Origin: Naegleria gruberi
Lineage: Eukaryota
Direction: 5' to 3' (one strand)
Length of the DNA stretch: 64,000 nt
Assembly (NCBI GenBank): GCA_000004985.1
Contig: GG738916.1
Shown one piece after another: positions 29,146-59,100 of the stretch (its first letter is position 1; each line of letters begins with the position of its first letter). The notes under the pieces are model-generated. The model did no database searches and was not told the DNA's origin. It saw only the letters and a list, made by a program, of their open reading frames with translations. A program made the position numbers and the translations under genes.

Positions 29146-29282
29146 CATTAAAGCTCTGTATCAGAAGTTTCTCCTTGGTCAAATCTGAATAGTGAATTCA
29201 AGTAAGGCCAAAGTTGACAATGTTCAATGAATAATGTTTGTAAACATTTCAAATCCTATTTTCAAAAAATTCAAATAAAAAA

Positions 29283-30829
29283 ATGTCAAGATTAACTTTT
29301 CCGTTACTTCTTGCTACATTGATAATCGCTTTCGTTTTGGTGTCATCAGCATCATTATCGGATCGGGTTAATGCCTTGACTCCACTCATAAAAACATCAA
29401 AATTATTCTCCATCAAACAACAGAATAATAACAAGCAATTATTTATTACTGCTACAATTTATCCTAATTTTAAAATTGTTCATGGAGTGAAGGATTTAAA
29501 ATTTGGTTTGGCTACTATTGAATATAATGATCAGTTACATGCACAAGGATTTGATACATTGGTTTTAGAGACGAGACAATCTACAAGTTTGGTGGAAGAC
29601 TTTGCTATTGCTCAGGGGGCTGGATATTTGGAAGGCTATTTGACAATGCAGAGAATTTACAATCATTTTGTGAATATTAATAGTGTATCGTGGTGGAATG
29701 CTAAGGAGAATAGAACTTTGGGAATGTCAAGTAATATTCGTCAATTTTTCAAAGATCAAAANACATGGATTTTACAACAAGTGAGCCAACACATGAATGG
29801 AACAACAGAAGAGGATTTATATTGGCNNNNNNNNNNNNNNNNNNNNNNNNNNNNNNNNNNNNNNNNNNNNNNNNNNACTGATATTATTTCAGTCATACCG
29901 TTGGGTGGGTATTTAGTGCCTTGACAAGAATGATGAAGACATACACTCTCAATTTTGCAAATCCACTCACAAAGTCTCGCACAGTGACATTTTCGAGTTA
30001 TCCTGGATCATTAGGCAGTAATGATGACTATTATCAAACTGATGGTGGTCTTGTTGTTATCGAGACAACCATTGGCATTTTGAATAATACTCTCTACGAT
30101 AATACTCATCCTCAATCATTGTTGAGTTGGTTTAGAGTTGTCTTGGCCAATAGAATGGCTACAAGTGGCAGAGAATGGTTTGAAGTTTTTAGTATTAATA
30201 ATGGAGGAACCTATAATAATGAGTGGATGATTCTCGATGTGAAAAAGTTTATTCCTGGTCAAGCTCAATTGACAAAGGATTTATTCTGGGTAATTGAACA
30301 AATACCTGGAACAGTGGTGGGATCAGATCAAACAAATCTTCTCTCCACTCGCGGATACTTTGCATCTTATAATGTTCCTTTCTATCCTTCCATTTATGAA
30401 AAAACTGGATATGCAGAATATGTGAAGAAATTTCCAGAGACTTATCATTATATGAGTTATGATAAGTGTGCCAGATCTGAAATATTCAGAAGAGATCAAC
30501 ATTTAGTCAAAGATCTGCCATCCATGCAACGAATTATGCAATATGATAATTATCATGATGAATTTTCATTCGGAAATCCTGACTGGGTAATCTCAGCAAG
30601 AGACGATTTAGCTCCAAATGTTCCAAATGGACAAAAGAGTTGTGGAGGTGGATATGACTGTAAAATATCATCTATTTCTAAATGGAATTTTGTATTTTTC
30701 AGAAGTGGACCAGCTCACCAATTTACACCTGTTTTCAAGTTTGAGAATCAATGTGGACCTCAATACTCACATGTTGGATTGCCTTTGGAGTGGAACTTCC
30801 CTTGGATTCAATTGGATAGCAGAGTTTAA
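29283..30829 (+). CDS. Phospholipase B-like protein (PLBD/LAMA family), interrupted by assembly gaps.
   Basis: Signal peptide MSRLTFPLLLATLIIAFVLVSSAS. PLB-like motifs ATIEYNDQLHAQGFDTLVLETRQST…AQGAGYLEGYLTMQRIYNHF. Second track ORF 29921..30829 (…WFRVVLANRMATSGREWFEVFSINNGGTYNNEWMILD…) continues the same protein. The frame break coincides with N at 29762 and the 50-N gap 29827..29876. Confidence 0.75.
29827..29876. other. Assembly gap (50 N) inside the PLB-like gene; single N also at 29762.
   Basis: Run of n. Confidence 1.
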
Positions 30830-34468: not shown

Positions 34469-34734
34469 TCATTTCTAATTAATTTAATAGCTCCAACTGA
34501 ATACTAAAGCTCAAGCTTTGCGTGTTGGTTGCATTTATTTTCCATCACAATGCTGAAACAACTTACCAAATGTGACTTACAAGACATTGTAATGTTGTCT
34601 TTGAATTGTAGCTTGTAATGGAAAAATGGCGTTCAAAAAAAAAATAGCATGTTGAATAGCTTGCTGTCCATCATTCTGAGAAAATATCAATCCATCAATA
34701 ATAGCACAACTTGATAATAATTAATAGTATTAAC

Positions 34735-36459: not shown

Positions 36460-37459
36460 TTAAGCCAATTAATAATTCTTACTTCTAGCACTCCAGAGAA
36501 GATCAAACCAAGTTATCTTTGTTATTAATAATTCGACTAAATCTGAAATATTTGTTACTATAGAGCTATTTATTATAACCTGCACCAAAAAAAATGAGGT
36601 TTATAAGGCAAGCACTGGAGGTTGTAGTGCCTCAATCGGAACAAGGGACCATTTTAATGATGTTTATTGGAACGTGCTCCTTACACTGAAAAAGTTCAAA
36701 ACGGAAATATTGAATGGGTTCCTCATGATGAGTTGGAATTTACCACAAAAACTCAAACTTTATTATCACAAATGAGAGTGTTATGAATGGGTCATCAGGT
36801 GGTTGTTTACAATCTTATCAATGCCAAAAAACTCAAGTTGGTGAGTATACAATTGTTGAATTTCATGGAATTCACTTTGGAGGAGAATTTTGAAAGTGTC
36901 AACATTGCTTGAAGAATATCAAACACTTGAAAGAGAAGAATATCAGATGGTCTGATTGGAATCGATATATTAATAAGTGGGACCATTGTACCTGTAAATC
37001 ACCAACCGGTTTAGCTTACAACTACTCTGTCTCTGTTCATCATCCACTATTTAAAGATGAAAACAAAAAGCTAATTCTTGAGGATTTATTGGAGTTATTG
37101 GATGTTAATATTGAAGATGAACGGTTGGCAAGATTAAAAGAATACCTCCAATAGTAAGATCCCTGTAAGAAAACACTTTCTGTATGATAGATCCCAACTA
37201 AACATAACATTGATATTTACCCATAGAATCTTCAATATCTGATATAAGAAAGAAGGAATTGTTTATAAACATTTATTTATTGGTGGCAATACCATGTTGG
37301 AGGGACTAACTTCTATAGCTCCAGAATATTTCAAGGTAAATGCTCCACCTGAGAGAAAATACTGGTAGTTCAATGTTTGACCATCTTACCTGTTGAAAAT
37401 AGAGCGAGAAGCTTCATAATAATACAATTAGTACATAATTGGTTTATATACATGTGAAA

Positions 37460-43477: not shown

Positions 43478-45155
43478 ATGTCTGTTGTATTTGACGAATT
43501 TGGAAGACCATTCATCATCCTCAGGGAACAAGATAAGAAACAAAGATTGAAGGGATTGGAAGCCATCAAGGTTTGTACTGATAATTATCATGAATCACCA
43601 ATATAAAAATTGTACCGAATATTTTTGACTTCTATACAACAATAACAACAATATCAATCATAATAATAATTTAATAATATCTAATACAACAACAACAACA
43701 ACAACAATTAAATAGGCTAACATCCAAGCTGCTATTAAAGTTGTGAATACATTAAAGACCTCTCTTGGTCCAAGAGGGATGGATAAGATGATGGTCAGTC
43801 CCGATGGAGATGTTACAGTGACTAACGATGGTGCTACAATCCTTGAAAAAATGCAAGTCAACCATCAAGTTGCTAAGCTTTTAGTAGAACTTTCTCAATC
43901 ACAAGACGACGAAATTGGTGATGGTACCACTGGTGTTGTTGTTTTGGCTGGAGCTTTGCTCGAAAAATCATTGGAATTACTTGATCGTGGTATTCACCCA
44001 ACCAAGATTTCTGAAGGATATGAAAAGGCTTGCGAATTTGCCTGTGATGAATTGGAAAAAATCAGTGATAGACTTGAATTCTCAAAGGATAATATTGAAC
44101 CACTTTTCAAGACTGCTTCCACAACACTTAACTCTAAGATTATTAACAAGTTTAGAGAAAAGTTCGCCAAGATGTGTGTTGATGCTGTTCTTGATGTTGC
44201 CGATATTGACAGAAAGGATGTTAACTTGGATTTGATTAAAGTTGAAGGAAAGACTGGTGGTAGACTCGAAGATTCATGCCTTGTTGATGGTATTGTTGTT
44301 GACAAAGAAATGAGTCACCCACAAATGGTTAAATCAATTGAAAATGCCAAGATTGCTATTTTGACTTGCCCATTCGAACCTCCAAAGACCAAGAATAAGG
44401 GTAACGTTGAAATTGACACTGTTGAAAAGTATAATTCATTGTATGAACTCGAACAAAACTACTTTGTTGAACAAGTTAAGAGATGTAAAGACTCTGGAGC
44501 CAACCTCATTATTTGTCAATGGGGCTTTGATGATGAAGCTAACCACTTGCTTCTCCAAAATGAACTTCCATCCGTTCGTTGGGTTGGTGGTGTTGAAATT
44601 GAATTGATTGCTATTGCCACTGGAGGCCGTATCATTCCAAGATTTGAAGAATTGTCAGCTGACAAGTTGGGTTCTGCTGGAAGAGTCCGTGAAGTCACTT
44701 TCGGTACAACATCTGATAAGATGATTTTCATTGAAAACTGTGCTAACACTAAGGCTGTCACTATCTTTGTCAGAGGTGGTAACAAGATGATCATTGAAGA
44801 AGCCAAGAGATCTATCCATGATGCTCTCTGCGTTGTAAGAAACCTTGTCAGAGACAATAGAATTGTTTATGGTGGTGGTTCTGCTGAAATTGCTTGTTCA
44901 TTGAGATTATCTAACGAAGCTGATAAGGTTACAGATGTTGACCAATATGCTATTAGATCTTTTGCAGATGCTTTGGAATTCGTTCCGCTTGCTCTTGCTC
45001 AAAACTCTGGTTACAATCCAATCGAATTTGTTTCAAATGTCAAGGGCGAACAATGTATGAATAAGGGAACTAAGGACATGAAGGACCAAGGAGTCTTTGA
45101 AACACTTGTCGGTAAGCAACAACAAATGAGGCTGGCCAGTCAAGTTGTCAGATGA
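43478..45155 (+). CDS. T-complex protein 1 subunit epsilon (CCT5) chaperonin, 2 exons. C-terminus possibly affected by a 1-nt frameshift.
   Basis: Exon 1 is 43478..43570 ([31 protein letters not shown]). Intron 43571..43715 (GTTTGT…AAATAG) contains a (CAA)n run. Exon 2 is 43716..45155. Near-identical blocks to CCT5: [96 protein letters not shown]. Confidence 0.85.
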
Positions 45156-45635
45156 TCTTGAAGATAGACGGTAATTATTTTTTTTTTATATTATTTTCTT
45201 ACATTATTTTAACAAACTTCTATTGTTTAATTATTCGGATATTATTAAATCGTTACTCAAAAATTTTCACAGATGGTAAGTATTTTAAAAATCATTTACA
45301 AATTTACCTTTATTATAGTGATAATGAACAACTCAAGCCAATTCTAAATCAACTTTTTTACATTTTACAACCAAATAAATTATTTAATTTTATAAAATTT
45401 TGCAAAGTGGTGCTCTTTGGATAACTTGAGTGATTTATCCGTTTACAAAAGTAATAAGAAAATTCACATTCTGTTTGTTAATGAATTTGCCATTACAATA
45501 ATTTCTTATTGGAATGTGTTGTGACAATTGCTTAGGCTTCTACATGCACTATCGAATGTTTGCTTTCACGGTTCAGTTCGGTTTTCAACCATACCCTACA
45601 ATGTATAATTCATCGTTCGAGTAACATGAAATAAT

Positions 45636-46400
45636 TTATTCATCTTTGGTTTTTTTGTAAAGTCTATATCTTCTTTTCTTAAAACACAAACAACAAAAGC
45701 TACTAGGAATGCAACAACCAGCACATATAATAACTTTGCATCCTGTACAAAGTGATAAATATTTTGCAAATTTGGGAATTGAGACAAACTTATATTGGAG
45801 TAATATAGAAAGAGACCAAGTTGTAAAATTGAGAATACATAAAACCAATAAACCCCAACTGAGTCCTGTAATTCTTTCAAAGTCTTTAGATTTGCAATTA
45901 TTATAAGCTCCATTTACTAGAACAAATAATACAATTGAACTAATAGACCACACAATACCAAATATTAAACAAATAATTAGCAAAGCAGATCCTGCCTTTG
46001 AATTTCGATATTCCCTTTCTTGTAAATCTATTGAAAAATATGAATACCAAATAAAAGTTGCCGGAACAGCTAAGAGTATGAAAAAACACCTCATATAGTC
46101 AAAGAACATTGTTTGGAAAGCAATACTTGTATAGTCTCTAGAGTCAACTATTATGGATCCAGGAGATGTACTGTTGGTATTTGTTATATTGGCCATTGTT
46201 GTTGTGTTTGTTTCTGTAGTAGATGATAAAGAACAACCATAACCAGGTACATTATTCACAATGATATATGGGTCTGTTTGTAATCTTGAAGCATTACTCC
46301 AAAAAGCTGCATGGCCAATACATGAAATAAATATCATGAGAAAGTTAAATAGGGTTAGGTACTTTCTGATGCGTTCGTTATCTTCTAGTTTGTCTGTCAT
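45636..46400 (-). CDS. Tetraspan (4-TM) membrane protein with Cys-rich cytoplasmic tail; lineage-specific family.
   Basis: 254 aa. Four hydrophobic helices, N-glycosylation-type sequons in the first loop, tail CTGCKVIICAGCCIPSSFCCLCFKKRRYRLYKK. Confidence 0.55.
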   Translation of the reverse strand: MTDKLEDNERIRKYLTLFNFLMIFISCIGHAAFWSNASRLQTDPYIIVNNVPGYGCSLSSTTETNTTTMANITNTNSTSPGSIIVDSRDYTSIAFQTMFFDYMRCFFILLAVPATFIWYSYFSIDLQEREYRNSKAGSALLIICLIFGIVWSISSIVLFVLVNGAYNNCKSKDFERITGLSWGLLVLCILNFTTWSLSILLQYKFVSIPKFAKYLSLCTGCKVIICAGCCIPSSFCCLCFKKRRYRLYKKTKDE

Positions 46401-46531
46401 GGTTGTATCGGTATTTTTTTTAGGGTGTGAAAGTTAAGTTGACAATTATGCATAATTAAATTAATTAAATGGTTATTCGAATATTTTATTCGAAAGCTTG
46501 ATAATTATTAGCGAAGAATCATCACACAAGC

Positions 46532-47983
46532 TTATTGATTCAAAACATTTGTTCGTATTGTTCTGGGGTTTGAAGCATTTGGACGTTTTCTCACCACATT
46601 GTGCGTTTGTTGAAGGTAATATGGATCGTTTTGCAAATAAAGAGGGTTTCTATCAATTTTGTGAATTTGGTTAAACGTTCTCACAAATTCTGAAACGTTT
46701 CTATCTTTGGATTCATCCTCATCCCAAAAGACCTTGTCAATTATTGTTGAGATTGCATCACGAATGAGCTTACCATATCGTTTGTGGAACGTCATGCTAT
46801 AGTAACAAATATAAGACAATACCCAAATAAAAACCTGAGCCAACGCCAAAACAAAGACTGTTAACACAACATTAAGTTTGTCTTGTGCATTGGAGGAACA
46901 ATCAGTGTAGACTGCAATGTGCCAAGAAAATTGAATGACCACAGAAGCTACAGCAACAATACATGAAATTCCAAATGAAAGAATTAAGAGAGAGAAACTG
47001 AACATGTCCATAAAATAGTCATATGCTTGATCTCTAACTTGGGAATTAAAATCACCAAACCAAGTAATTGCAAGAGGAACAGCAATAGCAACAATATAAT
47101 TTCTAACAAATTCTGTCAAACCAACCAAAACACTGCTATTATACTGTTCAAATCTTTGGCAACTATCACTAGGAGGATTTGCAACATAGCCATTATTAAT
47201 GATCATCAAATTAGAATCAGTCAATAAACGATTCAACATGGTAAAGAAAATAGCATATGAGACACATGTTGTCATCAAAAACAGGACTGAAAAGCAGCTT
47301 ATCATACTTCTAACTGCTTCATTGGTGGTTTTTTGGTAGCTGTAGAATTCACTATCCAAAAATAAGTCTTTGAGTGATTCTAATGTTTCGTGGTCAATTT
47401 CTTTTGTATTGTTTCTACTCTTTGAAAGTTTAGAAGAACGTAGGATTTTGATTTGTTCATACGCATCTTTAAATTCTTTAGGTGGAAGAGTATCCTTTAC
47501 AAATCTATCAAACTTTTCAATAATTATTCCATAGTCATCGTGCACAATATTTTTGCGTGTCATGGTTGACATTAGTCGAGTGTAAGATATCAACTTTTGA
47601 GCAAGAGACATATTTGGACCAATGTTATTACTACCACCATGTGAAATCAAGGTATTTCCAATATTTAATGTTTGCATAGGTCCATTGGTACCAATAACTA
47701 TAGATGTAACAGGTTGACCACCTGTTGATGAACTTGGTATTACACCATCAGATAAACTATTAATTGTGGAAATTGAGTTGTTAGTTCTTGTCAATACTAT
47801 CTCATCTGTTATGGGTTCAATTTGAGTCAAGACATTTTGTGTTGCTTGCAAATGATTATTTGGTACAACAATAAGAGTTTGTGGTGGTAATGATGATGAG
47901 CGTTGTGGTACTTCCTCCTCGATAATAGTAAGCTCCTCCTCCTCCTCACTCACCAAATTGTTTCTGTTGTTGGATGCTGACAT
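46532..47983 (-). CDS. Multi-pass membrane protein with N-terminal soluble domain; paralogous family with 49702..51195 and 51362..52504.
   Basis: 483 aa. Ser/Thr-rich N-terminal region, then a TM-loop-TM-TM-TM architecture (…AIFFTMLNRLL…IVAIAVPLAITWFGDF…FSFSLLILSFGISCIVAVASVVIQF…VVLTVFVLALAQVFIWVLSYICYY). Confidence 0.55.
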   Translation of the reverse strand: MSASNNRNNLVSEEEEELTIIEEEVPQRSSSLPPQTLIVVPNNHLQATQNVLTQIEPITDEIVLTRTNNSISTINSLSDGVIPSSSTGGQPVTSIVIGTNGPMQTLNIGNTLISHGGSNNIGPNMSLAQKLISYTRLMSTMTRKNIVHDDYGIIIEKFDRFVKDTLPPKEFKDAYEQIKILRSSKLSKSRNNTKEIDHETLESLKDLFLDSEFYSYQKTTNEAVRSMISCFSVLFLMTTCVSYAIFFTMLNRLLTDSNLMIINNGYVANPPSDSCQRFEQYNSSVLVGLTEFVRNYIVAIAVPLAITWFGDFNSQVRDQAYDYFMDMFSFSLLILSFGISCIVAVASVVIQFSWHIAVYTDCSSNAQDKLNVVLTVFVLALAQVFIWVLSYICYYSMTFHKRYGKLIRDAISTIIDKVFWDEDESKDRNVSEFVRTFNQIHKIDRNPLYLQNDPYYLQQTHNVVRKRPNASNPRTIRTNVLNQ

Positions 47984-48089
47984 TATTTTTTAAAAATGTG
48001 GAAAATTTTAAAAAAACTTTTAAAAAAATCACCTTATAACCATGAATACCAAAAGTGATTTTAAATCCAAAACAGAAAAAATAGCCTAA

Positions 48090-49646
48090 ATGCGCCTGTT
48101 ACCTTTTCTAAAGTTGAATAACAAACCAAGAAGAGAATCAGCACGGCAATTATTGCTCTCTGATGATATTATTTACATTATTCTTCCATGCTTGCATCAA
48201 AATGAAATTATTAAATTTGCTGGTGTTTGTTCATCGTGGAGAAGAATTGTTATTGATGCTTCCGAAGGTAGTTTCTCTAATGTATTATATCATAGGAGTG
48301 AATTTAAGAAAATACCAATGAAAATGGAGAACAAGAGTGAAAACCAACAAGTTTTATTAATGTTTTCAAAATTTGATTTCTCTGATTGCAATTTAACTTT
48401 ATCACAATTCAAAAGAATATTCATGTCAACTAAATTGACATCATTGACACTATGCCGTACAAATATTATGATTTTCCCTTCTGAATCACTCACATTTCTA
48501 ACCATTAATCAAATTAATCTTTCTCTAAACAATATTGAACAATTAATATTTCAATTTAAAAATTTGAAAAATTTAATTTTATTACATACTAATGTTGATT
48601 GTGAGTGCATTGATCTTATTATTAATAATAATCAATTAGAGAGTCTTATTATTGAGCAGAAAATAATATCTGAGAGAGGATTCTCTGCCGTGTTCAATCC
48701 TCATTTCAATTCATCACTCAATACCCTTCATGTTAAGAGTTTGAACACAGAGGAATTTCTTAGTTTTAATATTGATACACTTAAATTTCCTCATTTGAGA
48801 ACATTGGAAATTATTGGATTATTTGATAGATTAGTGCTTGAGAAAATATTTAATTATGGTCTTGAATTAACGTATTTAGCAATATTGACAACGAGCATTA
48901 TGAGCTACGATGTTGATTTTTCATATGTACATCAAATACCCTCTCTCAAATCATTTTCCTATAATGGACCTCTTAATAATGTAGATGTTCAACAATTTCT
49001 TAATAAGGATATGGAACATATTCTGTTTTCAGATCTTGACACAGTATCATCATTGAATTTATCTAGAATACTTTGTGACAAATATACTAGTTTAATTTCA
49101 TTAGAGCTTTCAAATTGTGAATTACCTACAAATTGTGGACAATACATTTACAATTTAAAACACTTGACAAAACTAGATATGGGATATAGTAAAATACAAT
49201 CAACAATTTGTGGATATATTTTCAAGATGAAAACTCTGGTTCATCTCAATCTAAAATGTTGTAAATTAAGAGATGACGGATTGAAGTATTTAGAACATCA
49301 CAACTTGGATAATATACAGACATTAATTCTAGAAGAAAACGAATTTACATATATTGGCTTTGAATACTTAATTCGTGCCAAATTTCACCGTCCATTGAAA
49401 TATCTTTCCATTTTTGACCATATTAATAATAAGGGAACAATACATTTTGACACTGACCACACTCTTAATGTTAAAACACTCTTTATTTGTGATAGGTATA
49501 TAGATTATAGGGGAGTAATTTCTATTCTACAAAATTGTATAATAGAAGAATTAATTATCAAGAAACCACAATTACTCTATCTTGGATCACACTCCATTAA
49601 ACAACTTTCAAAGAAGAATCACGTGAAGGTAGTAATGTTTATATAA
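48090..49646 (+). CDS. F-box/LRR-like protein (AGVCSxWRRIV subfamily, divergent member).
   Basis: 518 aa. F-box-like LLSDDIIYIILPCLHQNEIIKFAGVCSSWRRIV, then LRR-like units (LKNLILLHTNVDCECIDLII…LTKLDMGYSKIQ…LVHLNLKCCKLRDDGLKYL). Confidence 0.65.
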   Translation: MRLLPFLKLNNKPRRESARQLLLSDDIIYIILPCLHQNEIIKFAGVCSSWRRIVIDASEGSFSNVLYHRSEFKKIPMKMENKSENQQVLLMFSKFDFSDCNLTLSQFKRIFMSTKLTSLTLCRTNIMIFPSESLTFLTINQINLSLNNIEQLIFQFKNLKNLILLHTNVDCECIDLIINNNQLESLIIEQKIISERGFSAVFNPHFNSSLNTLHVKSLNTEEFLSFNIDTLKFPHLRTLEIIGLFDRLVLEKIFNYGLELTYLAILTTSIMSYDVDFSYVHQIPSLKSFSYNGPLNNVDVQQFLNKDMEHILFSDLDTVSSLNLSRILCDKYTSLISLELSNCELPTNCGQYIYNLKHLTKLDMGYSKIQSTICGYIFKMKTLVHLNLKCCKLRDDGLKYLEHHNLDNIQTLILEENEFTYIGFEYLIRAKFHRPLKYLSIFDHINNKGTIHFDTDHTLNVKTLFICDRYIDYRGVISILQNCIIEELIIKKPQLLYLGSHSIKQLSKKNHVKVVMFI

Positions 49647-49701
49647 AGATTCATTTCATTCATTTATTTGATTATCCAGAGTTGTGGTTTTTATCTTGAT
49701 T

Positions 49702-51195
49702 TCAATAAGTTCTGTTTAAATCATTTTCTAGTTCCAACCAATGCCAACTTTTCCATTTCTCAATTGCTTGTTTTTGAGGTTCATTTTTAAGCTTGGTGAT
49801 GGCAACATCCAGCTCATGCTGTCTATTTCCAATTTCTCTGTGTTGAAGTTCAATTTCTTCAGTGGAGTTAGATGCTTGAATAACAGGCTCTGTAAATAAC
49901 ACACTATAGTTCACATTTTGAATGCTGTGTGTTTTGGTATTGTGATAGCTGTAGTATTTTCTTTTCTTTTGGTTTTTTGCCTTCCTAAATTGTCTATTCA
50001 TTAAAATTCTAAAACAACCGAATGCAGGTATAAACAGCATAAACAAAATACTACCAACAACTTGAGTCCAAAATGCACCAAGCATGAGCTTTAGGTATTC
50101 ATTTGGAGCTATTAAATTAATGGCTGTATTAAAACTGATACCAATGGCAATGTTTAAGATAATGGTAATAAAAGTAATGAATTTAAATGTAACCTCGAGA
50201 ACATTTGTAACGGTATCACTATTAATCAATATACTCTTATTGTTGATTGAATTTAACATGGCATCCATAATTGTCAAAAAGGCTGCATATGAACCTGTTT
50301 TGAAAAAGCTTGAATTTAAAATATCGACTATAGAAGCCAATATTTTGCTATCTCTGAAGTTTTGATTATGATCAGTATACTGAGTAGTATCATTTCTGCT
50401 GAAGTAGCTTGGATAGATACCTATAGGGCCTTGTTTGTCAATTCCTAACCCTGACAAAGTGTCGAAGGGAATGAGATCACTAAGAGTGGTCATTACAATT
50501 AACAAACTGATAGCAGCACCGAACGCAAGATTGTACCATGAAACAAGTGAGGTTTCTCTTTTTTGAACAAAGTCCTTCTTGTTTGTTTTGATATCTTTCT
50601 CAAGAGTTTCGTATTTCTTTTCAACTTCTCTTATAGCTGTAAGAAATTTTCTTTTCCCCTCCCAACCATTTTTAGCATCTTGGTTAGCAAACAGATTTAC
50701 TAAAGCTTCAACATCTTCTACCAAAACATTTCCATCAACAAGGATAACACTATTATAAATATTTTTGTAAAGGCTATTCAACTTTGTAATATCTACACCG
50801 TGCCAAAACGATGTCCAAGTAGTTGCACCATTCTCCCCAAAATAAAAATCGTAAAAAGCTATTTCAGTGTTGACTGGTGAATCTGGTATTTTGCTAATTA
50901 CACCCTTCAAACCATAGTAGCTAGTGGCAATCAACTCAATTCTCTCTCCAACATAGTCTGTAGTGTCAATTCCTTCTAAATCACCCAAAGTGTTGTACTT
51001 TCGTATTTTCTCAACATTTGCTTGTACAAAATTATGACAGTTGTGGAAGGATGTAGAGGCAAATTTGATAAGTTTTCCCACCTTTTTCCATTTTTTGTAA
51101 CGCCAAGCATAGTCGCTGGTGTCTCCTGTGCGTGCCACAATACCACAACAACCTTTGTTGGTTTTCTTGCCTTTTGCTTTGTTCTGAGATGACAT
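49702..51195 (-). CDS. Multi-pass membrane protein (same family as 51362..52504 and 46532..47983).
   Basis: 497 aa. N-terminal soluble region with IREVEKKYETLEKDIKT…KRETSLVSWYNLAFGAAISLLIV, paralleling IRALEEKYLGFKKSIKT…KPREASLIALFNISFGIWMG in the neighbouring gene. Then four TM helices and a basic tail. Confidence 0.55.
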   Translation of the reverse strand: MSSQNKAKGKKTNKGCCGIVARTGDTSDYAWRYKKWKKVGKLIKFASTSFHNCHNFVQANVEKIRKYNTLGDLEGIDTTDYVGERIELIATSYYGLKGVISKIPDSPVNTEIAFYDFYFGENGATTWTSFWHGVDITKLNSLYKNIYNSVILVDGNVLVEDVEALVNLFANQDAKNGWEGKRKFLTAIREVEKKYETLEKDIKTNKKDFVQKRETSLVSWYNLAFGAAISLLIVMTTLSDLIPFDTLSGLGIDKQGPIGIYPSYFSRNDTTQYTDHNQNFRDSKILASIVDILNSSFFKTGSYAAFLTIMDAMLNSINNKSILINSDTVTNVLEVTFKFITFITIILNIAIGISFNTAINLIAPNEYLKLMLGAFWTQVVGSILFMLFIPAFGCFRILMNRQFRKAKNQKKRKYYSYHNTKTHSIQNVNYSVLFTEPVIQASNSTEEIELQHREIGNRQHELDVAITKLKNEPQKQAIEKWKSWHWLELENDLNRTY

Positions 51196-51361
51196 TCTCA
51201 GTCCTGTAACCTTGTGTTATTTTTTCTCGGCTATTAAAAGTATATTAACTTTTAAACAGAAAATAATACGGTGCGATTGAGCTCTTGAATGGTTTTGTCT
51301 GGTTGACCGTGAAACCTAATTCAATTTTTGGATAAAAAAAATATTAAAGAGCACTTTCAGC

Positions 51362-52504
51362 ATGGTTAACATTCGTGATTTTGATAAACAGCCTGAAGCA
51401 CGAAGTAAAGCAGCACGAAATGAAGCAACCCTAAAAGAAGAAGAGGACAACACCACACTTTATCAATGGTTCCTAGATCTTGGTAGAGCAATCCAAAATG
51501 CAGGTACAGAAGATAGTCCCTTGTCTAAATTGATGTTAGTTTCCAAAGAACAATGGTTTTTGGATGCCAAAGAATTTGTTTTTAAGCCACCTAAAACACA
51601 ATACAAACATAGATATGTTCTTGTACTTATTTCCAATTTGAAGACTTTGATTGTTGGTACTGAAATTTTACTCAAGAAAAAAGACGACAATGTTGATAAA
51701 ATAGAGCAGCTAACCAGTATAAGAGCTTTGGAAGAAAAGTATTTGGGGTTTAAGAAATCGATCAAGACTCAACAAAACTCATTGCAAAAGCCAAGAGAAG
51801 CTTCATTGATAGCATTGTTCAACATATCATTTGGAATTTGGATGGGTTTGTTCCTTTTGTTGTTGTCCCTTGGTTCAAATGCTGGTTTTGCTTACAAAGT
51901 TGAGACAACTGCAAATGATTTGGCAAAAGCCATAAATTCTACATTCATATCAAAACCTATTAGCAACATGACACTTAATTCTTCAAGCAATATCACACCA
52001 AACAATATAACAAACCACAATGAAGAGATCATTGCAGACATTCGTTGGTACATGGCATCAAGAGGATTCACCAATTTATTCAGCCTTTTCAGTAGCAGTG
52101 TTGTTCGTATTACAACTTTTTCAATCCTGATTACCATTATTGACTTGCTTCTTGGACTTGAATTTAAGGATTACCTTACCTCTGCCTCCTTTAAAAAGAG
52201 AAGACAATATTTTTTCTATACTTTTTACTTTTGGATTAGTTCTGGATTTTTAGCTCACCTTTTTATTTTTGTACTCTTTGTAGCATTGTTTAATGGTGCA
52301 GTAATTGGTGATGGAACAATGTCCTTTCAAACTTTTGTGTCAGTGGTCAAGTCTGTGCAGATTGTTGGCCTAATTGGAATGTCTGTTGTATTGCTCTCTA
52401 CTGTATTCATCAAAATTTTCCTGGTTTGGCAAGTAAGGAAGAGTGAAGAAAGATTTGTTGGTTCTAAAAAATCTAAAGGTTGCTGCCGTTGCTTTTGTTG
52501 TTAA
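51362..52504 (+). CDS. Multi-pass membrane protein with Cys-rich C-terminal tail (paralog of 49702..51195, divergently transcribed).
   Basis: 380 aa. TM helices and tail SKKSKGCCRCFCC. The two ATGs (51195 minus, 51362 plus) lie 166 bp apart. Confidence 0.55.
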   Translation: MVNIRDFDKQPEARSKAARNEATLKEEEDNTTLYQWFLDLGRAIQNAGTEDSPLSKLMLVSKEQWFLDAKEFVFKPPKTQYKHRYVLVLISNLKTLIVGTEILLKKKDDNVDKIEQLTSIRALEEKYLGFKKSIKTQQNSLQKPREASLIALFNISFGIWMGLFLLLLSLGSNAGFAYKVETTANDLAKAINSTFISKPISNMTLNSSSNITPNNITNHNEEIIADIRWYMASRGFTNLFSLFSSSVVRITTFSILITIIDLLLGLEFKDYLTSASFKKRRQYFFYTFYFWISSGFLAHLFIFVLFVALFNGAVIGDGTMSFQTFVSVVKSVQIVGLIGMSVVLLSTVFIKIFLVWQVRKSEERFVGSKKSKGCCRCFCC

Positions 52505-52526
52505 TAATATAAATTAGTTTGCTTTA

Positions 52527-54365
52527 TTAAATAAATTCATCAATTCGTATATCTGTATATGCAATCAAATAGTTGATTTTTGTTGGTTGTCTTAATTGTG
52601 ATATGACTTTTGCTTTAAGGGCTGCAAAACCTCCAATTCCAGTCAGATATTTAGGTGCCAGATTATTGACTATAGGTACTAAAATAGGTGTAATTGTTAA
52701 ATCTACCCAATAAAGTTCTAAATGTATCAAATTTTTCAGAGATGGTCCAGAATGTAACATATCAGTTGCATAAATATCAAATTCATAATAAAAACTCAAG
52801 TATCTTAATTTGGGAAAATTTGAATGAGCTAAACTTGATGTAAACTTTGAGTCATATTTGAACTTGCCTGAAGGAACTCTTGTAAACTTTAAAGTTTGTA
52901 AATTTAGTAAATTTCCGTTGCATAAATATGAAATTCCATCAAATGTAATTTCACTTCCTAAATATAATGTTGTCAAGTTACTCATTCTTGATAAATATTT
53001 CATTTCTTCACTATCAATATGTGTTTGAATAATTCGTAAATCAGTAATTTTTGAAAGTTGGGATATGTGATGCATACATCCACTTTTCATTACTACTTTT
53101 CTTAACTCTAAATAGGTTAGATTTTGGACTTTTTCACAGAATTTTCGTATTACATATTCATCTATTTCAGTTCCTTGTTTTGTATTTAGAATGCATAAAT
53201 ATTTCAAATTAAGAAAGTTACCCTCACTCAATTCAGAGAATGTATTATTGTCAACAGGACCAATTTCTAGGTGAGTGAGATTATTTTGAAGAGGTAATAA
53301 ACATCTGTAAGGTAAATCTACTTCCAATTTTGATTGAAAACAAAGTTTTTGGAGTGTATGAATTTTTCCAATTTGTTTCACACATTCACTATTTAAATGT
53401 GAGTGAAGAAAAGTCAATTCTCTCCATGAATTACCACTATTCAACACATTCATAATTGATTTTGTCGACATCTCCAAATCTATTGAAAAAGATTCAAGAT
53501 TTGGTAAAATTGAACTATTAATTGGTGCTATGTATGAAATATTGTCTTTTTGAGATGATTCTGGAGGTCTTGCAACAAAGTTAATATGTTTCAAAGTTCT
53601 AATATTTCCTGGTTGAGTCAATATTTGATTAACACCTTCATCTCCAATTCGATTACGAAGTGTAAGATGTGTTAGACGAGTCAACTTTGATTTGGTCAAT
53701 ACAAGTGTTGCCTTATAATCAAGTCCATTATCAATTAATGTTAGATCTGTTAAATTTAGTAAATTAGTGCATATAGTTCTTAAATTTTCAACTTCCATTT
53801 GAACACTTATTAATTTCAGTGTTGTAATTGGTGAAATATCTTTAGCAGGAATAACAATTGTAATAATATTAGTATTTTGTAATGTCAATAATTCCAGTTT
53901 TTTTGAATTGAATAACTTTTTAAAAAAAGATCTGTTAAGAAAAATAGTTTCCTCAAATTCTGGAAAAGTTCTTATTTCCATTTGTGAGAATATTTGCAAG
54001 AGGTCACCTTTCATCAATCCACTCATTTCCTCCTCATCATTTAATGATTCAAATCTGTATCTTGCTGATTTATGCTTCACATTTACACACTTGATTTCTC
54101 TAGTATCACTTTCTTTTACAATTCTTCTCCACTCGGAACAAACTCCAGCAAAAGCAATCAAAGTATGCCAATTAAAATAGGGAATAATAACATTGCAAAA
54201 TATATCTTGACTCAATTGTAATATTTTGGAATAAATCATCATGTTAATACTATTATCTGTTGTTGTTGTGCTATTACTATCGGTTGTTGTGTTATTATTG
54301 ATGGATTGATAGTGGGTACTTTCTCTAGAAAAACAACAGAATGATGGACAACAAGTTGTCAACAT
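52527..54365 (-). CDS. F-box/LRR-repeat protein, inverted near-identical paralog of 34735..36459, with a longer N-terminal extension.
   Basis: 612-aa ORF with ATG at 54365. About 98% identical to copy 1 across the F-box and all LRRs. The N-terminal 40-aa extension (MLTTCCPSFCCFSRESTHYQSINNNTTTDSNSTTTTDNSIN) is degraded by indels in copy 1. Confidence 0.75.
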   Translation of the reverse strand: MLTTCCPSFCCFSRESTHYQSINNNTTTDSNSTTTTDNSINMMIYSKILQLSQDIFCNVIIPYFNWHTLIAFAGVCSEWRRIVKESDTREIKCVNVKHKSARYRFESLNDEEEMSGLMKGDLLQIFSQMEIRTFPEFEETIFLNRSFFKKLFNSKKLELLTLQNTNIITIVIPAKDISPITTLKLISVQMEVENLRTICTNLLNLTDLTLIDNGLDYKATLVLTKSKLTRLTHLTLRNRIGDEGVNQILTQPGNIRTLKHINFVARPPESSQKDNISYIAPINSSILPNLESFSIDLEMSTKSIMNVLNSGNSWRELTFLHSHLNSECVKQIGKIHTLQKLCFQSKLEVDLPYRCLLPLQNNLTHLEIGPVDNNTFSELSEGNFLNLKYLCILNTKQGTEIDEYVIRKFCEKVQNLTYLELRKVVMKSGCMHHISQLSKITDLRIIQTHIDSEEMKYLSRMSNLTTLYLGSEITFDGISYLCNGNLLNLQTLKFTRVPSGKFKYDSKFTSSLAHSNFPKLRYLSFYYEFDIYATDMLHSGPSLKNLIHLELYWVDLTITPILVPIVNNLAPKYLTGIGGFAALKAKVISQLRQPTKINYLIAYTDIRIDEFI

Positions 54366-54507
54366 GCTCTCTTATTTTTTTTTGAACCTTAACTCCATTT
54401 TCCCCATTTTTCTTTTGATTCGGCAAAATACACAAAAACGTACAAAAATGTAAAAAATATTACAACGATGACTTTTGAAAGAGTTTACCAAAACCGACTG
54501 TTAAAAA

Positions 54508-55790
54508 ATGAAGAGAGCTCGAGATGAAATGAGAAGCGCAAACAACATTGTCCTGTTATTATTCTTGTTGATGATGATGACAATCTTTTCCACAACAACA
54601 ACAGCAGCAACTACAAGTTCCACCACTAAATTATCATATATTTCAACAATTGCAGGAAGTGGATTAATATCAGCAGCAGGTATGGAAGGAGATGGTGGTT
54701 TGGCTATCAATGCCCAATTAAATTCTCCCTCCTATTCAATAAGTATTTCCCCTCTCAGCAATAATAATTACACTGAAACACTTATTGTCGATACACAAAA
54801 TGGAAGAATTAGAAAAATATTTATGAATGGTACAATTTTCACATTACCAATTAATATGCAAACAGGTAACAAGTTTAAACCAACCATGGCTGTTTTATTT
54901 AGAAATGAATTATACATGACAGATGTGTTAAATCATAGAATTCTTTCTGTTTGCCTTTCACGTTATTTGGTGACCATTGTTTCTGGAAAGCAAAACTGTA
55001 ATGAACATTCTGATTGTGATGGTTTTAGTGGTGATGGTGGTTTAGCTAGTAGAGCAAAATTAAATTCACCTAATGGTCTCTCTATTTCTCAGAATGGTGA
55101 AATTTACATTGCTGACACATTGAACCATAGAATCAGAAAGATTAATAGTTATGGAGTGATTTCAACTATTGCTGGAACTGGTAGAGCATCCTTTGGTGGT
55201 GATGGTGGATTTGCTGTTCTTTCACAATTAAACTCTCCAAATGGTGTTCATATTTCACAGAATGGTGAAATTTACATTGCTGATACATTGAACCATAGAA
55301 TTAGAAAGATTAATAGTTATGGTGTGATTTCAACAGTGGCAGGAACTGGTAGAGCATCATTTGGTGGTGATGGTGGTTTGGCTATAAACTCTCAATTGAA
55401 TTCACCATATGGCGTCCATGTTTCACAGAATGGTGAAATTTACATTGCTGACACATTGAATCATCGAATTAGAAAGATATTTGTGAATGGAACTATTACA
55501 ACCATTGCTGGAAGTAGTAGCGATGGATCATTTGGTGGTGATGGTGGTTTGTCAATTGCGAGTCGACTTAATTCTCCTAAAGGTGTTTTTGTTTCTCCAA
55601 ATAATAATGAAATATTAATTGCAGACACATCAAATAACAGGATTAGAAAGATCATTGAATGTGGTACAACTCTTCAATTTACACAAGATTTCAATGGAGC
55701 TATGAGTTGTGTGAATACATGCAATGGAACACGATCCAATTCAAAATCAGTTTGTAATGGCAATGGTATCTGTAATGGTTTTAATGAATG
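54508..55790 (+). CDS. Secreted NHL-repeat beta-propeller protein, 5' part of an NHL/EGF-array gene, truncated by the assembly gap at 55791.
   Basis: Signal peptide MKRARDEMRSANNIVLLLFLLMMMTIFS. Six NHL repeats of the form LNSPNGxxISQNGEIYIADTLNHRIRKI, then the first EGF-like Cys pattern (CVNTCNGTRSNSKSVCNGNGICNGFNEC) before the gap. Nucleotide sequence is about 98% identical to 56163..57363. Confidence 0.65.
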
Positions 55791-56160: not shown

Positions 56161-56179
56161 GGAGAGAGCTCGAGATGAA

Positions 56180-59100
56180 ATGAGAAGCGCAAACAACATT
56201 GTCCTGTTATTATTCTTGTTGTTGATGATGACACTCTTTTCCACAACAACAACAATAGGATACTTTTCGTATGTGAAAGCAACAACTGCAAGTTCCACCA
56301 CTAAATTATCATATATTTCAACAATTGCAGGAAGTGGATTAATGGCAGCATCAGGTATGGAAGGAGATGGTGGTTTGGCTATCAATGCCCAATTAAATGC
56401 TCCCTCCTATTCAATAAGTATTTCCCCTCTCAACAATAATAATTACACTGAAACACTTATTATAGATACACAAAATGGAAGAATTAGAAAAATATTTATG
56501 AATGGTACAATTTTCACATTACCAATTAATATGCAAACAGGTAACAAGTTTAAACCAACCGTGGCTGTTTTATTTAGAAATGAATTATACATGACAGATG
56601 TGTTAAATCATAGAATTCTTTCTGTTTCTCTGTCAAGTTATTTGGTGACCATTGTTTCTGGAAAGCAAAACTGTAATGGACATTCTGATTGTGATGGTTT
56701 TAGTGGTGATGGTGGTTTAGCTAGTAGAGCAAAATTAAATTCACCAAATGGTCTCTCTATTTCTCAGAATGGTGAAATTTACATTGCTGACACATTGAAC
56801 CATAGAATCAGAAAGATTAATAGTTATGGAGTGATTTCAACTATTGCTGGAACTGGTAGAGCATCCTTTGGTGGTGATGGTGGATTTGCTGTTCTTTCAC
56901 AATTAAACTCTCCAAATGGTGTTCATATTTCACAGAATGGTGAAATTTACATTGCTGATACATTGAACCATAGAATTAGAAAGATTAATAGTTATGGTGT
57001 GATTTCAACAGTGGCAGGAACTGGTAGAGCATCCTTTGGTGGTGATGGTGGTTTGGCTATAAACTCTCAATTGAATTCACCATATGGCGTCCATGTTTCA
57101 CAGAATGGTGAAATTTACATTGCTGACACATTGAATCATCGAATTAGAAAGATATTTGTGAATGGAACTATTACAACCATTGCTGGAAGTAGTAGCGATG
57201 GATCATTTGGTGGTGATGGTGGTTTGTCAATTGCGAGTCGACTTAATTCTCCTAAAGGTGTTTTTGTTTCTCCAAATAATAATGAAATATTAATTGCAGA
57301 CACATCAAATAACAGGATTAGAAAGATCATTGAATGTGGTACAACTCTTCAATTACACAAGATNNNNNNNNNNNNNNNNNNNNNNNNNNNNNNNNNNNNN
57401 NNNNNNNNNNNNNNNNNNNNNNNNNNNNNNNNNNNNNNNNNNNNNNNNNNNNNNNNNNNNNNNNNNNNNNNNNNNNNNNNNNNNNNNNNNNNNNNNNNNN
57501 NNNNNNNNNNNNNNNNNNNNNNNNNNNNNNNNNNNNNNNNNNNNNNNNNNNNNNNNNNNNNNNNNNNNNNNNNNNNNNNNNNNNNNNNNNNNNNNNNNNN
57601 NNNNNNNNNNNNNNNNNNNNNNNNNNNNNNNNNNNNNNNNNNNNNNNNNNNNNNNNNNNNNNNNNNNNNNNNNNNNNNNNNNNNNNNNNNNNNNNNNNNN
57701 NNNNNNNNNNNNNNNNNNNNNNNNNNNNNNNNNNNNNNNNNNNNNNNNNNNNNNNNNNNNNNNNNNNNNNNNNNNNNNNNNNNNNNNNNNNNNNNNNNNN
57801 NNNNNNNNNNNNNNNNNNNNNNNNNNNNNNNNNNNNNNNNNNNNNNNNNNNNNNNNNNNNNNNNNNNNNNNNNNNNNNNNNNNNNNNNNNNNNNNNNNNN
57901 NNNNNNNNNNNNNNNNNNNNNNNNNNNNNNNNNNNNNNNNNNNNNNNNNNNNNNNNNNNNNNNNNNNNNNNNNNNNNNNNNNNNNNNNNNNNNNNNNNNN
58001 NNNNNNNNNNNNNNNNNNNNNNNNNNNNNNNNNNNNNNNNNNNNNNNNNNNNNNNNNNNNNNNNNNNNNNNNNNNNNNNNNNNNNNNNNNNNNNNNNNNN
58101 NNNNNNNNNNNNNNNNNNNNNNNNNNNNNNNNNNNNNNNNNNNNNNNNNNNNNNNNNNNNNNNNNNNNNNNNNNNNNNNNNNNNNNNNNNNNNNNNNNNN
58201 NNNNNNNNNNNNNNNNNNNNNNNNNNNNNNNNNNNNNNNNNNNNNNNNNNNNNNNNNNNNNNNNNNNNNNNNNNNNNNNNNNNNNNNNNNNNNNNNNNNN
58301 NNNNNNNNNNNNNNNNNNNNNNNNNNNNNNNNNNNNNNNNNNNNNNNNNNNNNNNNNNNNNNNNNNNNNNNNNNNNNNNGCCAATTCTGTGAAATTCCAA
58401 TTTGTAATGGAACAATGGCAACTGATGCTTTGGTTTGTAATGGCAATGGTACATGTATTCAACCAGATATATGTAATTGTACTTCAGAATGGGGTGGACA
58501 GTATTGTGAAATTCCATATTGTAATGGAATATTGGCAAATAATATATCTGCTTGTGAAGGACATGGTAACTGTATTAGCCCAAATATTTGTGAGTGTAAT
58601 TCGACATATGGTGGAGAATTTTGTGAATCTCCAAAATGTAACTTTACACTGGCAACTGATCCTTATGTATGTACTGGAAATGGAGAATGTATTCAACCAG
58701 ATGAATGTATTTGTAATACCAATTGGACTGGTCAATTCTGTCAAACTCCACTTTGTAATGGTACGAGTGCAACTGATGCATTGGTTTGTAATGGAAACGG
58801 TCAATGTGTGAGTCCAAATATTTGTGAATGTAATTCAAGTTGGTCAGGAGAACTTTGTGAAATTCCAATTTGTAATGGAACTTTGGCCATTGATGAATTT
58901 GTGTGTAGTGGTAATGGTGCATGTATTGGTCCAGATGTTTGTGAGTGCAATTCTACATGGGGTGGACAATATTGTGAATCTCCAAAATGTAACTCTACAC
59001 TGGCAACTGATCCTTATGTATGCAATGGTAATGGAGAATGTTTTCAACCCAATGAATGTATTTGTAATTCAAATTGGACAGGTCCATTTTGTGAAATTCC

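What the first reader, a model, noticed from the sequence alone, without database searches (positions are those of the whole stretch)
45636..52504. Four-member family of lineage-specific multi-pass membrane proteins, including a divergent bidirectional pair
Genes at 45636..46400, 46532..47983, 49702..51195 and 51362..52504 all encode proteins with four hydrophobic helices. They have a glycosylation-type first loop and basic or Cys-rich cytoplasmic tails (CCRCFCC; CAGCCIPSSFCCLCF), which suggests palmitoylation. The last two share a conserved N-terminal soluble block (IR.(L/V)E.KY..L.K.IKT … ASL(I/V)..(F/Y)N(I/L)(A/S)FG). They are transcribed divergently from ATGs 166 bp apart. No known family is recognisable by eye.
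Basis: partly seen in the sequence, partly recalled or inferred. Interest (0 to 1): 0.5.

Follow-up and report, generated by a model that had tools for sequence, protein, structure and literature searches.

The report
Two orphan Naegleria membrane-protein gene pairs
The four genes are real and encode four-pass membrane proteins with cysteine-rich tails, but they form two unrelated, Naegleria gruberi-only gene pairs of unknown function, which is ordinary for this genome.

Summary
The window is Naegleria gruberi. Genes A, B and C are 100% identical to annotated "predicted proteins" NAEGRDRAFT_74679, 74680 and 53624. D has no gene model on record.

The "four-member family" is not supported.
- A~B and C~D are each significant: E about 1e-8, and z = 11-13 over shuffles that keep the hydropathy pattern.
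- All four cross-pair comparisons are noise (z -0.5 to 1.4; hhalign probability 2-7%).

An exhaustive HMMER scan of 1.84 billion proteins with the C/D profile found only three more N. gruberi proteins, so that family has at least five members, all in this species. A/B gave nothing beyond themselves. Pfam, PDB sequences, AlphaFold2 (pLDDT 43-49) and fold searches gave no link to tetraspanin, claudin, MARVEL or channel families.

A second-strain contig shows B under purifying selection (9 synonymous, 3 non-synonymous changes, one in-frame indel). The 166-bp spacer is typical here, where neighbouring gaps are 22-166 bp.

Best reading: locally duplicated orphan genes for N-in/C-in four-pass glycoproteins with S-acylated tails, probably membrane scaffolds. 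The function is inferred, not shown. Interest is low.

The parts
45636..46400 (-). Gene A (254 aa), NAEGRDRAFT_74679 / EFC37658. A/B family. TM helices at aa 15-33, 106-124, 140-158 and 183-201. Loop 1 is 72 aa with 4 sequons.
45684..45749 (-). Cys-rich juxtamembrane tail of A (CTGCKVIICAGCCIPSSFCCLC, 9 Cys in 22 aa), followed by the basic stretch KKRRYRLYKKTKDE. Predicted S-acylation cluster.
46532..47983 (-). Gene B (483 aa), NAEGRDRAFT_74680 / EFC37659. Paralogue of A over the 4-TM core (aa 221-407), with an added 220-aa cytosolic N-terminal region and a 93-aa tail. A and B lie in tandem, 131 bp apart.
49702..51195 (-). Gene C (497 aa), NAEGRDRAFT_53624 / EFC37660. C/D family: an N-terminal soluble domain of about 220 aa, a 4-TM core (the second helix is only weakly hydrophobic) and a 100-aa helical tail.
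51145..51150 (-). Cys16-Cys17 of C within the polybasic N-terminus (KAKGKKTNKGCCGIV). Predicted N-terminal dual S-acylation site.
50518..50634 (-). Conserved juxtamembrane block plus the start of TM1 in C (IREVEKKYETLEKDIKTNKKDFVQKRETSLVSWYNLAFG).
51196..51361 (.). 166-bp spacer between the head-to-head start codons of C and D. AT-rich, with only short chance-level repeats.
51362..52504 (+). Gene D (380 aa). No exact protein record exists, so it is apparently unannotated. Paralogue of C, with a soluble N-terminal domain of about 148 aa and TM helices at aa 149-167, 247-265, 297-315 and 337-355. Loop 1 is 79 aa with 5 sequons.
51719..51835 (+). Conserved juxtamembrane block plus the start of TM1 in D (IRALEEKYLGFKKSIKTQQNSLQKPREASLIALFNISFG).
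52478..52501 (+). C-terminal GCCRCFCC of D. Predicted S-acylation cluster.
34478..34528 (+). 51-bp relic of a C-like gene, 87% identical to 50068-50121. It reads INLIAPTEY* because a 1-bp deletion creates a stop. It lies next to the duplicated LRR2 gene.

Best explanation
Shown:
- The segment is part of a Naegleria gruberi scaffold.
- It carries two separate orphan gene families, each present as a local duplicate. A/B is a tandem pair on the minus strand. C/D is an inverted, head-to-head pair.
- The C/D family has at least three further members elsewhere in N. gruberi (NAEGRDRAFT_54957, 76572 and 62004). It has none in any other organism among 1.84 billion representative proteins.
- The surrounding DNA is prone to duplication.

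Inferred from sequence:
- Every member is a four-pass membrane protein with both ends in the cytosol.
- There is no signal peptide, so TM1 acts as a signal anchor.
- The first exoplasmic loop is 37-92 aa long, rich in N-glycosylation sequons in A and D, and not conserved in sequence.
- The TM2-TM3 cytosolic loop is short and positively charged, and the second exoplasmic loop is about 21-25 aa.
- The cytosolic ends carry basic residues plus dense Cys clusters (tail of A, C-terminus of D, N-terminus of C). These would be S-acylated by DHHC enzymes and would pin those ends to the inner leaflet.

Inferred function (weakest step): non-enzymatic tetraspan-like scaffold or organiser proteins of the plasma membrane or of an endomembrane. 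The cytosolic N-terminal helical domain of C/D, and that of B, would recruit partners. The variable glycosylated loop would face the outside. The function has not been tested.
For: - Organism and annotation: A and C match N. gruberi proteins at 100%; accessions come.
- Real genes: the ORFs run 254-497 codons in 33% GC DNA. In a second-strain contig that is 98.5% identical, B has 9 synonymous and 3 non-synonymous changes and one in-frame codon indel, while the intergenic DNA carries many indels.
- Two families: A~B E = 1.3e-8 over 217 aa and C~D E = 1.8e-8. Both score z = 11-13 against window shuffles and hydropathy-class shuffles.
- C/D family restricted to N. gruberi: the exhaustive profile search found only P0004, P0001 and P0008, all from N. 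gruberi. P0008 carries the RE...(F/Y)N..FG block and the 4-TM core.
- Nothing was found in metagenome or viral DNA.
- Topology: the hydropathy peaks and K+R counts fit N-in/C-in, with 4/14, 3/15 and 8/14 positive residues in the putative inside segments of A. The sequons are concentrated in loop 1, with enrichment P = 0.014 in A, 0.004 in D and 2e-5 pooled.
- The Cys clusters are far above background (P = 6e-11 and 3e-8).
- The AF2 secondary structure shows four long helices in A and matching helices in D.
- Duplication-prone context: LRR2 has an inverted 94% copy, a C-like relic lies beside it, and the NHL gene is tandemly duplicated.
Against: - There is no direct evidence of transcription, membrane insertion, glycosylation or acylation.
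- C's second helix is too weakly hydrophobic to be called transmembrane on its own. If it is not a TM helix, C would have an odd number of passes.
- The sequon enrichment is not significant in B or C.
- B has no Cys cluster.
- The AF2 models are low-confidence (pLDDT 49 and 43), so no fold supports a scaffold over a channel or transporter.
- A/B was searched only with the word-indexed tool (query A alone) and with DNA pattern scans. Diverged orthologues in other Naegleria species could have been missed.
- I could not verify that other Naegleria proteomes are in the libraries searched.
Confidence: 0.55

Rival explanations
1. All four genes are one very old family of four-pass proteins. An ancestral [4-TM gene + F-box/LRR gene] unit was duplicated, then the 4-TM gene was duplicated again in each copy. 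A/B and C/D have since diverged beyond sequence recognition.
For: - The predicted topology and loop proportions are the same in both pairs.
- Cys-rich or basic cytosolic ends occur in both pairs.
- The locus reads [A B LRR1][C D LRR2], and LRR1 and LRR2 are themselves paralogues (25% identity over 482 aa, E = 6e-15).
Against: - Cross-pair Smith-Waterman scores are z = -0.5 to 1.4 against shuffles.
- blastp finds nothing better than E = 0.2.
- hhalign gives 2.4-7.3% probability and aligns TM1 of A to TM2 of D, which is out of register.
- The conserved motifs differ: AVP...W, FGI and Y..C.S in A/B, against RE..L...N..FG and T(I/F)(I/M)D in C/D.
- A/B keep one Cys in each outer loop; C/D have none.
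- Gene orientations in the two units do not match a simple segmental duplication.
- F-box/LRR genes are common in this window.
Confidence: 0.15
2. The proteins are subunits of oligomeric four-TM channels, working like pannexin/innexin, CALHM or Orai. In C/D the long helix that runs from the cytosolic domain into TM1 would line or gate a pore, and the co-located paralogues would form heteromers.
For: - They have four TM helices with N-in/C-in topology.
- D has a continuous predicted helix from residue 110 to 172 running into TM1.
- A and B each have one Cys in each outer loop (C56/C169 in A, C275/C362 in B), which could form an inter-loop disulfide.
- C and D are paired head to head.
Against: - No Pfam hit to innexin, connexin, CALHM or Orai at E up to 1.
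- No PDB sequence hit.
- The fold searches return only generic helical bundles.
- There are no conserved polar or charged pore-type residues in the TM helices of A/B.
- C/D have no outer-loop Cys at all.
Confidence: 0.1
3. Some or all of the ORFs are not functional genes. They would be chance ORFs or decaying duplicates in a region that rearranges often.
For: - D has no gene model on record.
- A C-like pseudogene relic exists at 34478-34528.
- A shows only 1 synonymous and 1 non-synonymous difference between strains, which is uninformative.
Against: - The chance of a 380-codon open frame at this base composition is about 1e-13 (my own calculation from the composition).
- D is 73% identical to annotated P0001 and shares a conserved block with C and P0008.
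- B shows 9 synonymous and 3 non-synonymous changes and only in-frame indels, while the spacers accumulate indels.
Confidence: 0.03
4. The genes were acquired from a giant virus or another foreign source and are not native Naegleria inventions.
For: They are orphans with no eukaryotic homologues, and giant viruses of Naegleria exist (PMC11043551, listed but not read).
Against: - No relative was found in 2.9 million viral contigs for either family.
- GC content and third-position GC match the neighbouring host genes such as CCT.
- The genes sit among ordinary eukaryotic genes (CCT, calpain-like, F-box/LRR).
Confidence: 0.02

Closest known systems
Claudin / PMP22 / EMP / MP20 superfamily (Pfam PF00822, PF13903)
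   Same: Four TM helices with N-in/C-in topology, a long first and a short second extracellular loop, glycosylation in loop 1, and membrane-proximal cytosolic Cys palmitoylation. These family properties come from my own knowledge.
   Different: There is no Pfam hit at E up to 1 and no W-GLW-C-C signature in loop 1. C/D and B carry cytosolic N-terminal domains of 150-220 aa that claudins lack. No structural support could be obtained.
Tetraspanins (PF00335)
   Same: Four-pass, N-in/C-in, N-glycosylated, multiply palmitoylated membrane organisers. This is the functional analogy I favour.
   Different: In tetraspanins the large loop is EC2 (between TM3 and TM4) and carries a CCG motif and conserved disulfides. 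Here the large loop is EC1, and EC2 is only about 21-25 aa with 0-1 Cys. There is no Pfam hit.
MARVEL-domain proteins (PF01284)
   Same: A four-helix membrane domain with both ends in the cytosol.
   Different: There is no Pfam hit. As far as I know, MARVEL loops are short, whereas loop 1 here is 37-92 aa.
Four-TM large-pore channels (innexin/pannexin PF00876, connexin PF00029, CALHM PF14798)
   Same: Four TM helices, cytosolic ends, and Cys in both outer loops (A/B only).
   Different: There are no sequence hits. A/B have only one Cys per loop and C/D have none. The proteins here are much smaller in the case of A, or have different cytosolic domains.
Other N. gruberi 'predicted proteins' without homologues
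   Same: A, B, C, P0001, P0004 and P0008 are all deposited as 'predicted protein' with no Pfam domain.
   Different: Here the relationships (two families, at least five C/D members), the topology and the unannotated member D have been worked out.

Membership tests
   Cross-pair z = -0.5 to 1.4 against hydropathy-preserving shuffles. The best blastp E is 0.2. hhalign probability is 2.4% and 7.3%.
A/B family (new, two members) | Significant similarity across the 4-TM core, with shared motifs (RL.TD, AVP...W, FGI, Y..C.S, W.LS) | tested here: met
   blastp E = 1.3e-8 over 217 aa; z = 12-13; alignment.
C/D family (new, at least five N. gruberi members) | The juxtamembrane block IR..E.KY.....IKT...RE..L...(F/Y)N..FG followed by the 4-TM core | tested here: met
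   C~D E = 1.8e-8, z = 11-12. The profile search recovers P0004, P0001 and P0008 only. Alignment.
Tetraspanin (PF00335) | Pfam profile match | tested here: not met
   No hit at E up to 1 for A-D, P0001, P0004 or P0008.
Tetraspanin (PF00335) | Small EC1 and a large EC2 carrying CCG and conserved Cys | tested here: not met
   The large loop lies between TM1 and TM2. The TM3-TM4 loop is 21-25 aa with 0-1 Cys. The only CCG is at C16-G18 of gene C, in the cytosolic N-terminus.
Claudin/PMP22 (PF00822, PF13903) | Pfam profile match and the W-GLW-C-C motif in ECL1 | tested here: not met
   No Pfam hit. Loop 1 holds 2 Cys in A (one is at the TM2 edge), 1 in B and 0 in C and D, and has no GLW.
Claudin/PMP22 (PF00822, PF13903) | 4-TM, N-in/C-in topology with a long ECL1 and a short ECL2 | tested here: met
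   Hydropathy plus the positive-inside count. This is a prediction only and is shared by many unrelated families.
MARVEL (PF01284) | Pfam profile match | tested here: not met
   No hit.
Innexin/pannexin/connexin/CALHM channels | Profile match, and two or more conserved Cys in each extracellular loop | tested here: not met
   No Pfam or PDB sequence hit. A/B have one conserved or near-conserved Cys per loop and C/D have none.
Any known fold (structure-based) | A confident model that superposes on a solved 4-TM family | tested here: inconclusive
S-acylated (palmitoylated) membrane proteins | Thioester-linked acyl chains on cytosolic Cys residues | not testable with these tools
   Only the sequence context is available: the Cys clusters adjoin TM4 or polybasic stretches.

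The most novel reading that the evidence does not exclude
C and D (and their co-diverged paralogues P0004 and P0001) are obligate partners, expressed together from the 166-bp bidirectional spacer. They would assemble into a hetero-oligomeric four-TM complex of a fold not yet described, for example a Naegleria-specific surface channel or adhesion/recognition complex. The family would have arisen de novo within the N. gruberi lineage.
Probability: 0.06. Interest if true: 0.5.

Novelty: new variant of a known kind. Interest (0 to 1): 0.2.

Why it matters
The result matters mainly for annotation.
- It defines two small orphan families in N. gruberi.
- It shows that a 380-aa member (D), and apparently both neighbouring F-box/LRR ORFs, have no exact protein record.
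- It shows that this stretch of the scaffold is being reshaped by recent duplications.

If the proteins do sit at the cell surface, they would be candidates for species-specific surface organisation or recognition in an amoeboflagellate related to the pathogen N. fowleri. No evidence yet ties them to a process. Orphan 'predicted proteins' are common in this genome, so a specialist would not be surprised.

Tried and rejected
- Pfam scans of all four proteins and of all five C/D members gave only sub-threshold hits, each in a single member. DUF2231 (E = 9.5e-4, 27 residues on TM1 of C only), PDR_CDR, Oxidored_q5_N, SKA2 and KxDL were rejected as noise.
- Profile searches of PDB sequences found nothing better than E = 0.9.
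- DNA-level searches for relatives of either family in JGI metagenomes and IMG/VR found none.
- Contigs for P0001, P0004, P0008, C and D could not be retrieved. I therefore could not test whether the P0004/P0001 paralogues are also head to head.
- Literature searches for the six locus tags returned nothing, and a search for Naegleria plus tetraspanin returned nothing relevant.
- The 166-bp spacer contains only short AT-rich repeats of chance size. The bacterial promoter scanner was not used, because it does not apply to a eukaryote.
- I considered A's fifth hydrophobic stretch (aa 222-240) as a TM5 and rejected it. It is missing in B, holds 7 Cys plus Pro and Ser, and a fifth pass would place the KKRRYRLYKK tail outside, against the positive-inside rule.
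- I considered D residues 86-104 as a TM helix and rejected it. The homologous segment in C carries four acidic residues.
Full report
**Source and context**

The window is AT-rich (GC about 0.21-0.35). It carries long, mostly uninterrupted ORFs for eukaryotic proteins: a TCP-1/CCT chaperonin subunit (Pfam E = 5e-156), F-box/LRR proteins and an NHL-repeat protein.

Genes A (45636-46400, minus strand) and C (49702-51195, minus strand) are 100% identical to Naegleria gruberi 'predicted proteins' on a 245-kb scaffold. Exact look-up gives these identities:
- A = EFC37658 / NAEGRDRAFT_74679
- B = EFC37659 / NAEGRDRAFT_74680
- C = EFC37660 / NAEGRDRAFT_53624

Gene D (51362-52504, plus strand) has no exact record, and neither do the two flanking LRR ORFs. 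D's closest relative in 5.8 billion clusters is a 246-aa N. gruberi fragment, P0001, at 73% identity.

**Checking the observation**

The four ORFs, their strands and their lengths are as stated.

The Cys strings are exact. A has CTGCKVIICAGCCIPSSFCCLC followed by KKRRYRLYKKTKDE. D ends in GCCRCFCC. C carries CC at residues 16-17 in a polybasic N-terminus. Against the window's own Cys frequency of 1.7%, these clusters have P = 6e-11 (A) and P = 3e-8 (D).

Hydropathy and charge counts fit an N-in/C-in four-pass topology. Loop 1 is 37-92 aa, the TM2-TM3 loop is short and positively charged, loop 3 is 21-25 aa, and the tails are basic.

Sequons are enriched in loop 1 of A (4 in 72 aa, P = 0.014) and D (5 in 79 aa, P = 0.004). 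They are not significantly enriched in B or C. Pooled over five proteins, P = 2e-5.

There are caveats on the helix count:
- B's TM2 scores KD 1.54.
- C's TM2 falls below KD 1.0 and counts as transmembrane only by alignment to D and P0008.
- A has a fifth hydrophobic stretch (the Cys-rich tail), and D has one at residues 86-104. I argue that neither is a TM helix (see Tried and rejected).

The ATGs of C and D are 166 bp apart, head to head.

**One family or two?**

blastp finds A~B (E = 1.3e-8 over 217 aa, the whole 4-TM core) and C~D (E = 1.8e-8; tblastn extends this to 192 aa). It finds nothing across the pairs better than E = 0.2.

I tested specifically for similarity beyond hydrophobic composition. 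Smith-Waterman scores were compared with 300 shuffles that keep either local composition (10-residue windows) or the exact hydrophobic/polar pattern:
- A-B: z = 12.2 and 12.9
- C-D: z = 12.3 and 11.0
- The four cross-pairs: z = -0.5 to 1.4

Profile-profile comparison gives 2.4% probability, and 7.3% after adding P0008. It aligns TM1 of A to TM2 of D, which is out of register.

The conserved motifs also differ, and A/B keep one Cys in each outer loop while C/D have none. What stands is two families that share a predicted topology.

One hint favours a deeper link. The locus reads [A B LRR1][C D LRR2], and LRR1 and LRR2 are paralogues (E = 6e-15). However, the gene orientations do not fit a simple unit duplication, and F-box/LRR genes recur elsewhere in the window. 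I keep this as a rival at 0.15.

**Distribution**

An exhaustive HMMER search of 1.84 billion representatives with the C/D profile returned only three proteins: P0004 (E = 3e-125), P0001 (E = 1e-116) and P0008 (E = 1e-5). All are N. gruberi 'predicted proteins' (NAEGRDRAFT_54957, 76572 and 62004).

P0008 is 185 aa. It begins just before the RE...FN..FG block and carries the full 4-TM core, 31% identical to D. The C/D family therefore has at least five members, all in one species.

C-P0004 (78%) and D-P0001 (73%) are similarly diverged. This is compatible with duplication of the pair as a unit, but I could not retrieve those contigs to check.

For A/B, the word-indexed search with A found only itself. 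DNA pattern scans of JGI metagenomes and IMG/VR found no relative of either family. The A/B family was not searched exhaustively, and I could not verify that other Naegleria proteomes are in the libraries. 'N. gruberi-restricted' is therefore well supported for C/D and provisional for A/B.

**Are they real genes?**

A 5.6-kb ENA metagenome contig (L001) is 98.5% identical to window 44142-49673. It carries CCT, A, B and LRR1 in the same order.
- B differs by 9 synonymous changes, 3 non-synonymous changes and one in-frame codon deletion.
- A differs by 1 synonymous and 1 non-synonymous change.
- The spacers hold 38 indel positions.

This supports purifying selection on B and intact reading frames in both strains. 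D's support is its 380-codon open frame in 33% GC DNA, plus its homology to C, P0001 and P0008.

**Comparison with known families**

Pfam gives no hit at E up to 1 to tetraspanin, claudin/PMP22, MARVEL, innexin, connexin, CALHM or any other family. Only isolated sub-threshold hits appeared, each in a single member. Profile searches of all PDB sequences gave nothing better than E = 0.9.

By architecture, the proteins resemble claudin/PMP22-type tetraspans (long loop 1, short loop 2, juxtamembrane Cys) more than tetraspanins (large loop 2 with CCG). The defining motifs of both were tested and are absent. I therefore do not file them under any known family.

**Mechanism**

Shown:
- Two locally duplicated orphan families.
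- A conserved juxtamembrane helix plus a 4-TM core in C/D.
- A conserved 4-TM core in A/B, with one Cys per outer loop.

Inferred:
- TM1 acts as a signal anchor.
- A glycosylated, fast-evolving loop 1 faces the outside or the lumen.
- DHHC-type S-acylation of the Cys clusters tethers the cytosolic ends.
- The cytosolic helical domains of B, C and D act as interaction modules.

I take a tetraspan-like scaffold or organiser role as the most likely function (overall confidence 0.55 for the whole statement, with the functional step the weakest). A channel role is the main functional rival (0.1).

**The 'bidirectional promoter'**

Every gap between neighbouring genes here is short:
- A-B: 131 bp
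- B-LRR1: 106 bp, divergent
- LRR1-C: 55 bp
- C-D: 166 bp, divergent
- D-LRR2: 22 bp
- LRR2-NHL: 142 bp, divergent

A 166-bp divergent spacer is therefore normal for this compact genome. The notable point is only that the two genes it separates are paralogues, that is, an inverted duplication. The spacer has no repeat beyond chance size. Co-regulation needs expression data.

**Verdict**

This is a set of ordinary orphan membrane-protein genes: two families rather than one, three of the four genes already deposited as 'predicted proteins', and one apparently unannotated. Interest is low (0.2). The most novel reading that the evidence does not exclude is a new heteromeric four-TM complex born in this lineage, at a probability of about 0.06.

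Noticed in passing
window 52513-54387 and 34631-36473: The LRR2 gene with its short flanks has an inverted copy 18 kb away, 94% identical in DNA and 95% in protein. The duplication boundary lies 9 bp after gene D's stop codon.
   Followed up: partly
window 34478-34528: A 51-bp relic of a C-like gene, 87% identical to 50068-50121. It reads INLIAPTEY*, where gene C reads INLIAPNEYLKLMLGAFW; a 1-bp deletion creates the stop. It sits between a calpain-like ORF (32738-34468) and the LRR2 copy, and is not collinear with the C-D-LRR2 order.
   Followed up: partly
window 48090-49646 (+) and 52527-54365 (-): The two F-box/LRR ORFs that flank the membrane-protein genes are paralogues (25% identity over 482 aa, E = 6e-15) and share the motif FAGVCS.WRRIV. 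Neither has an exact protein record. The accessions of B and C are consecutive, so LRR1 may be unannotated.
   Followed up: partly
window 54350-54365 (-), the N-terminus of LRR2: LRR2 begins MLTTCCPSFCCF. This is a Cys-rich N-terminus of the same style as the tails of A and D and the N-terminus of C, which suggests that S-acylation motifs are common in this gene neighbourhood.
   Followed up: no
window 45053/45054 and about 45150; L001 4651-4683: Compared with the second-strain contig, the reference CCT ORF lacks 33 in-frame bases that encode IQTKNPRLGVD. It also has a 1-bp difference near its end, so the window reads ...QVVR* where L001 reads ...QVVKMILKIDG, a typical CCT C-terminus. This is either an assembly error or a strain difference.
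   Followed up: partly
window 54512-55689 and 56163-57363: The NHL-repeat gene is tandemly duplicated at 96% identity and has internal repeats of about 168 bp. The area is interrupted by runs of N, i.e. assembly gaps.
   Followed up: no
window 22000-30000: A stretch of markedly lower GC content (0.21-0.27, against about 0.33 elsewhere).
   Followed up: no
L001 (ENA ERZ929261, run ERR1078381, project PRJEB11402): A 'metagenome' assembly contains a 5.6-kb contig that is 98.5% identical to N. gruberi NEG-M. A close N. gruberi-complex strain was therefore present in that sample.
   Followed up: no
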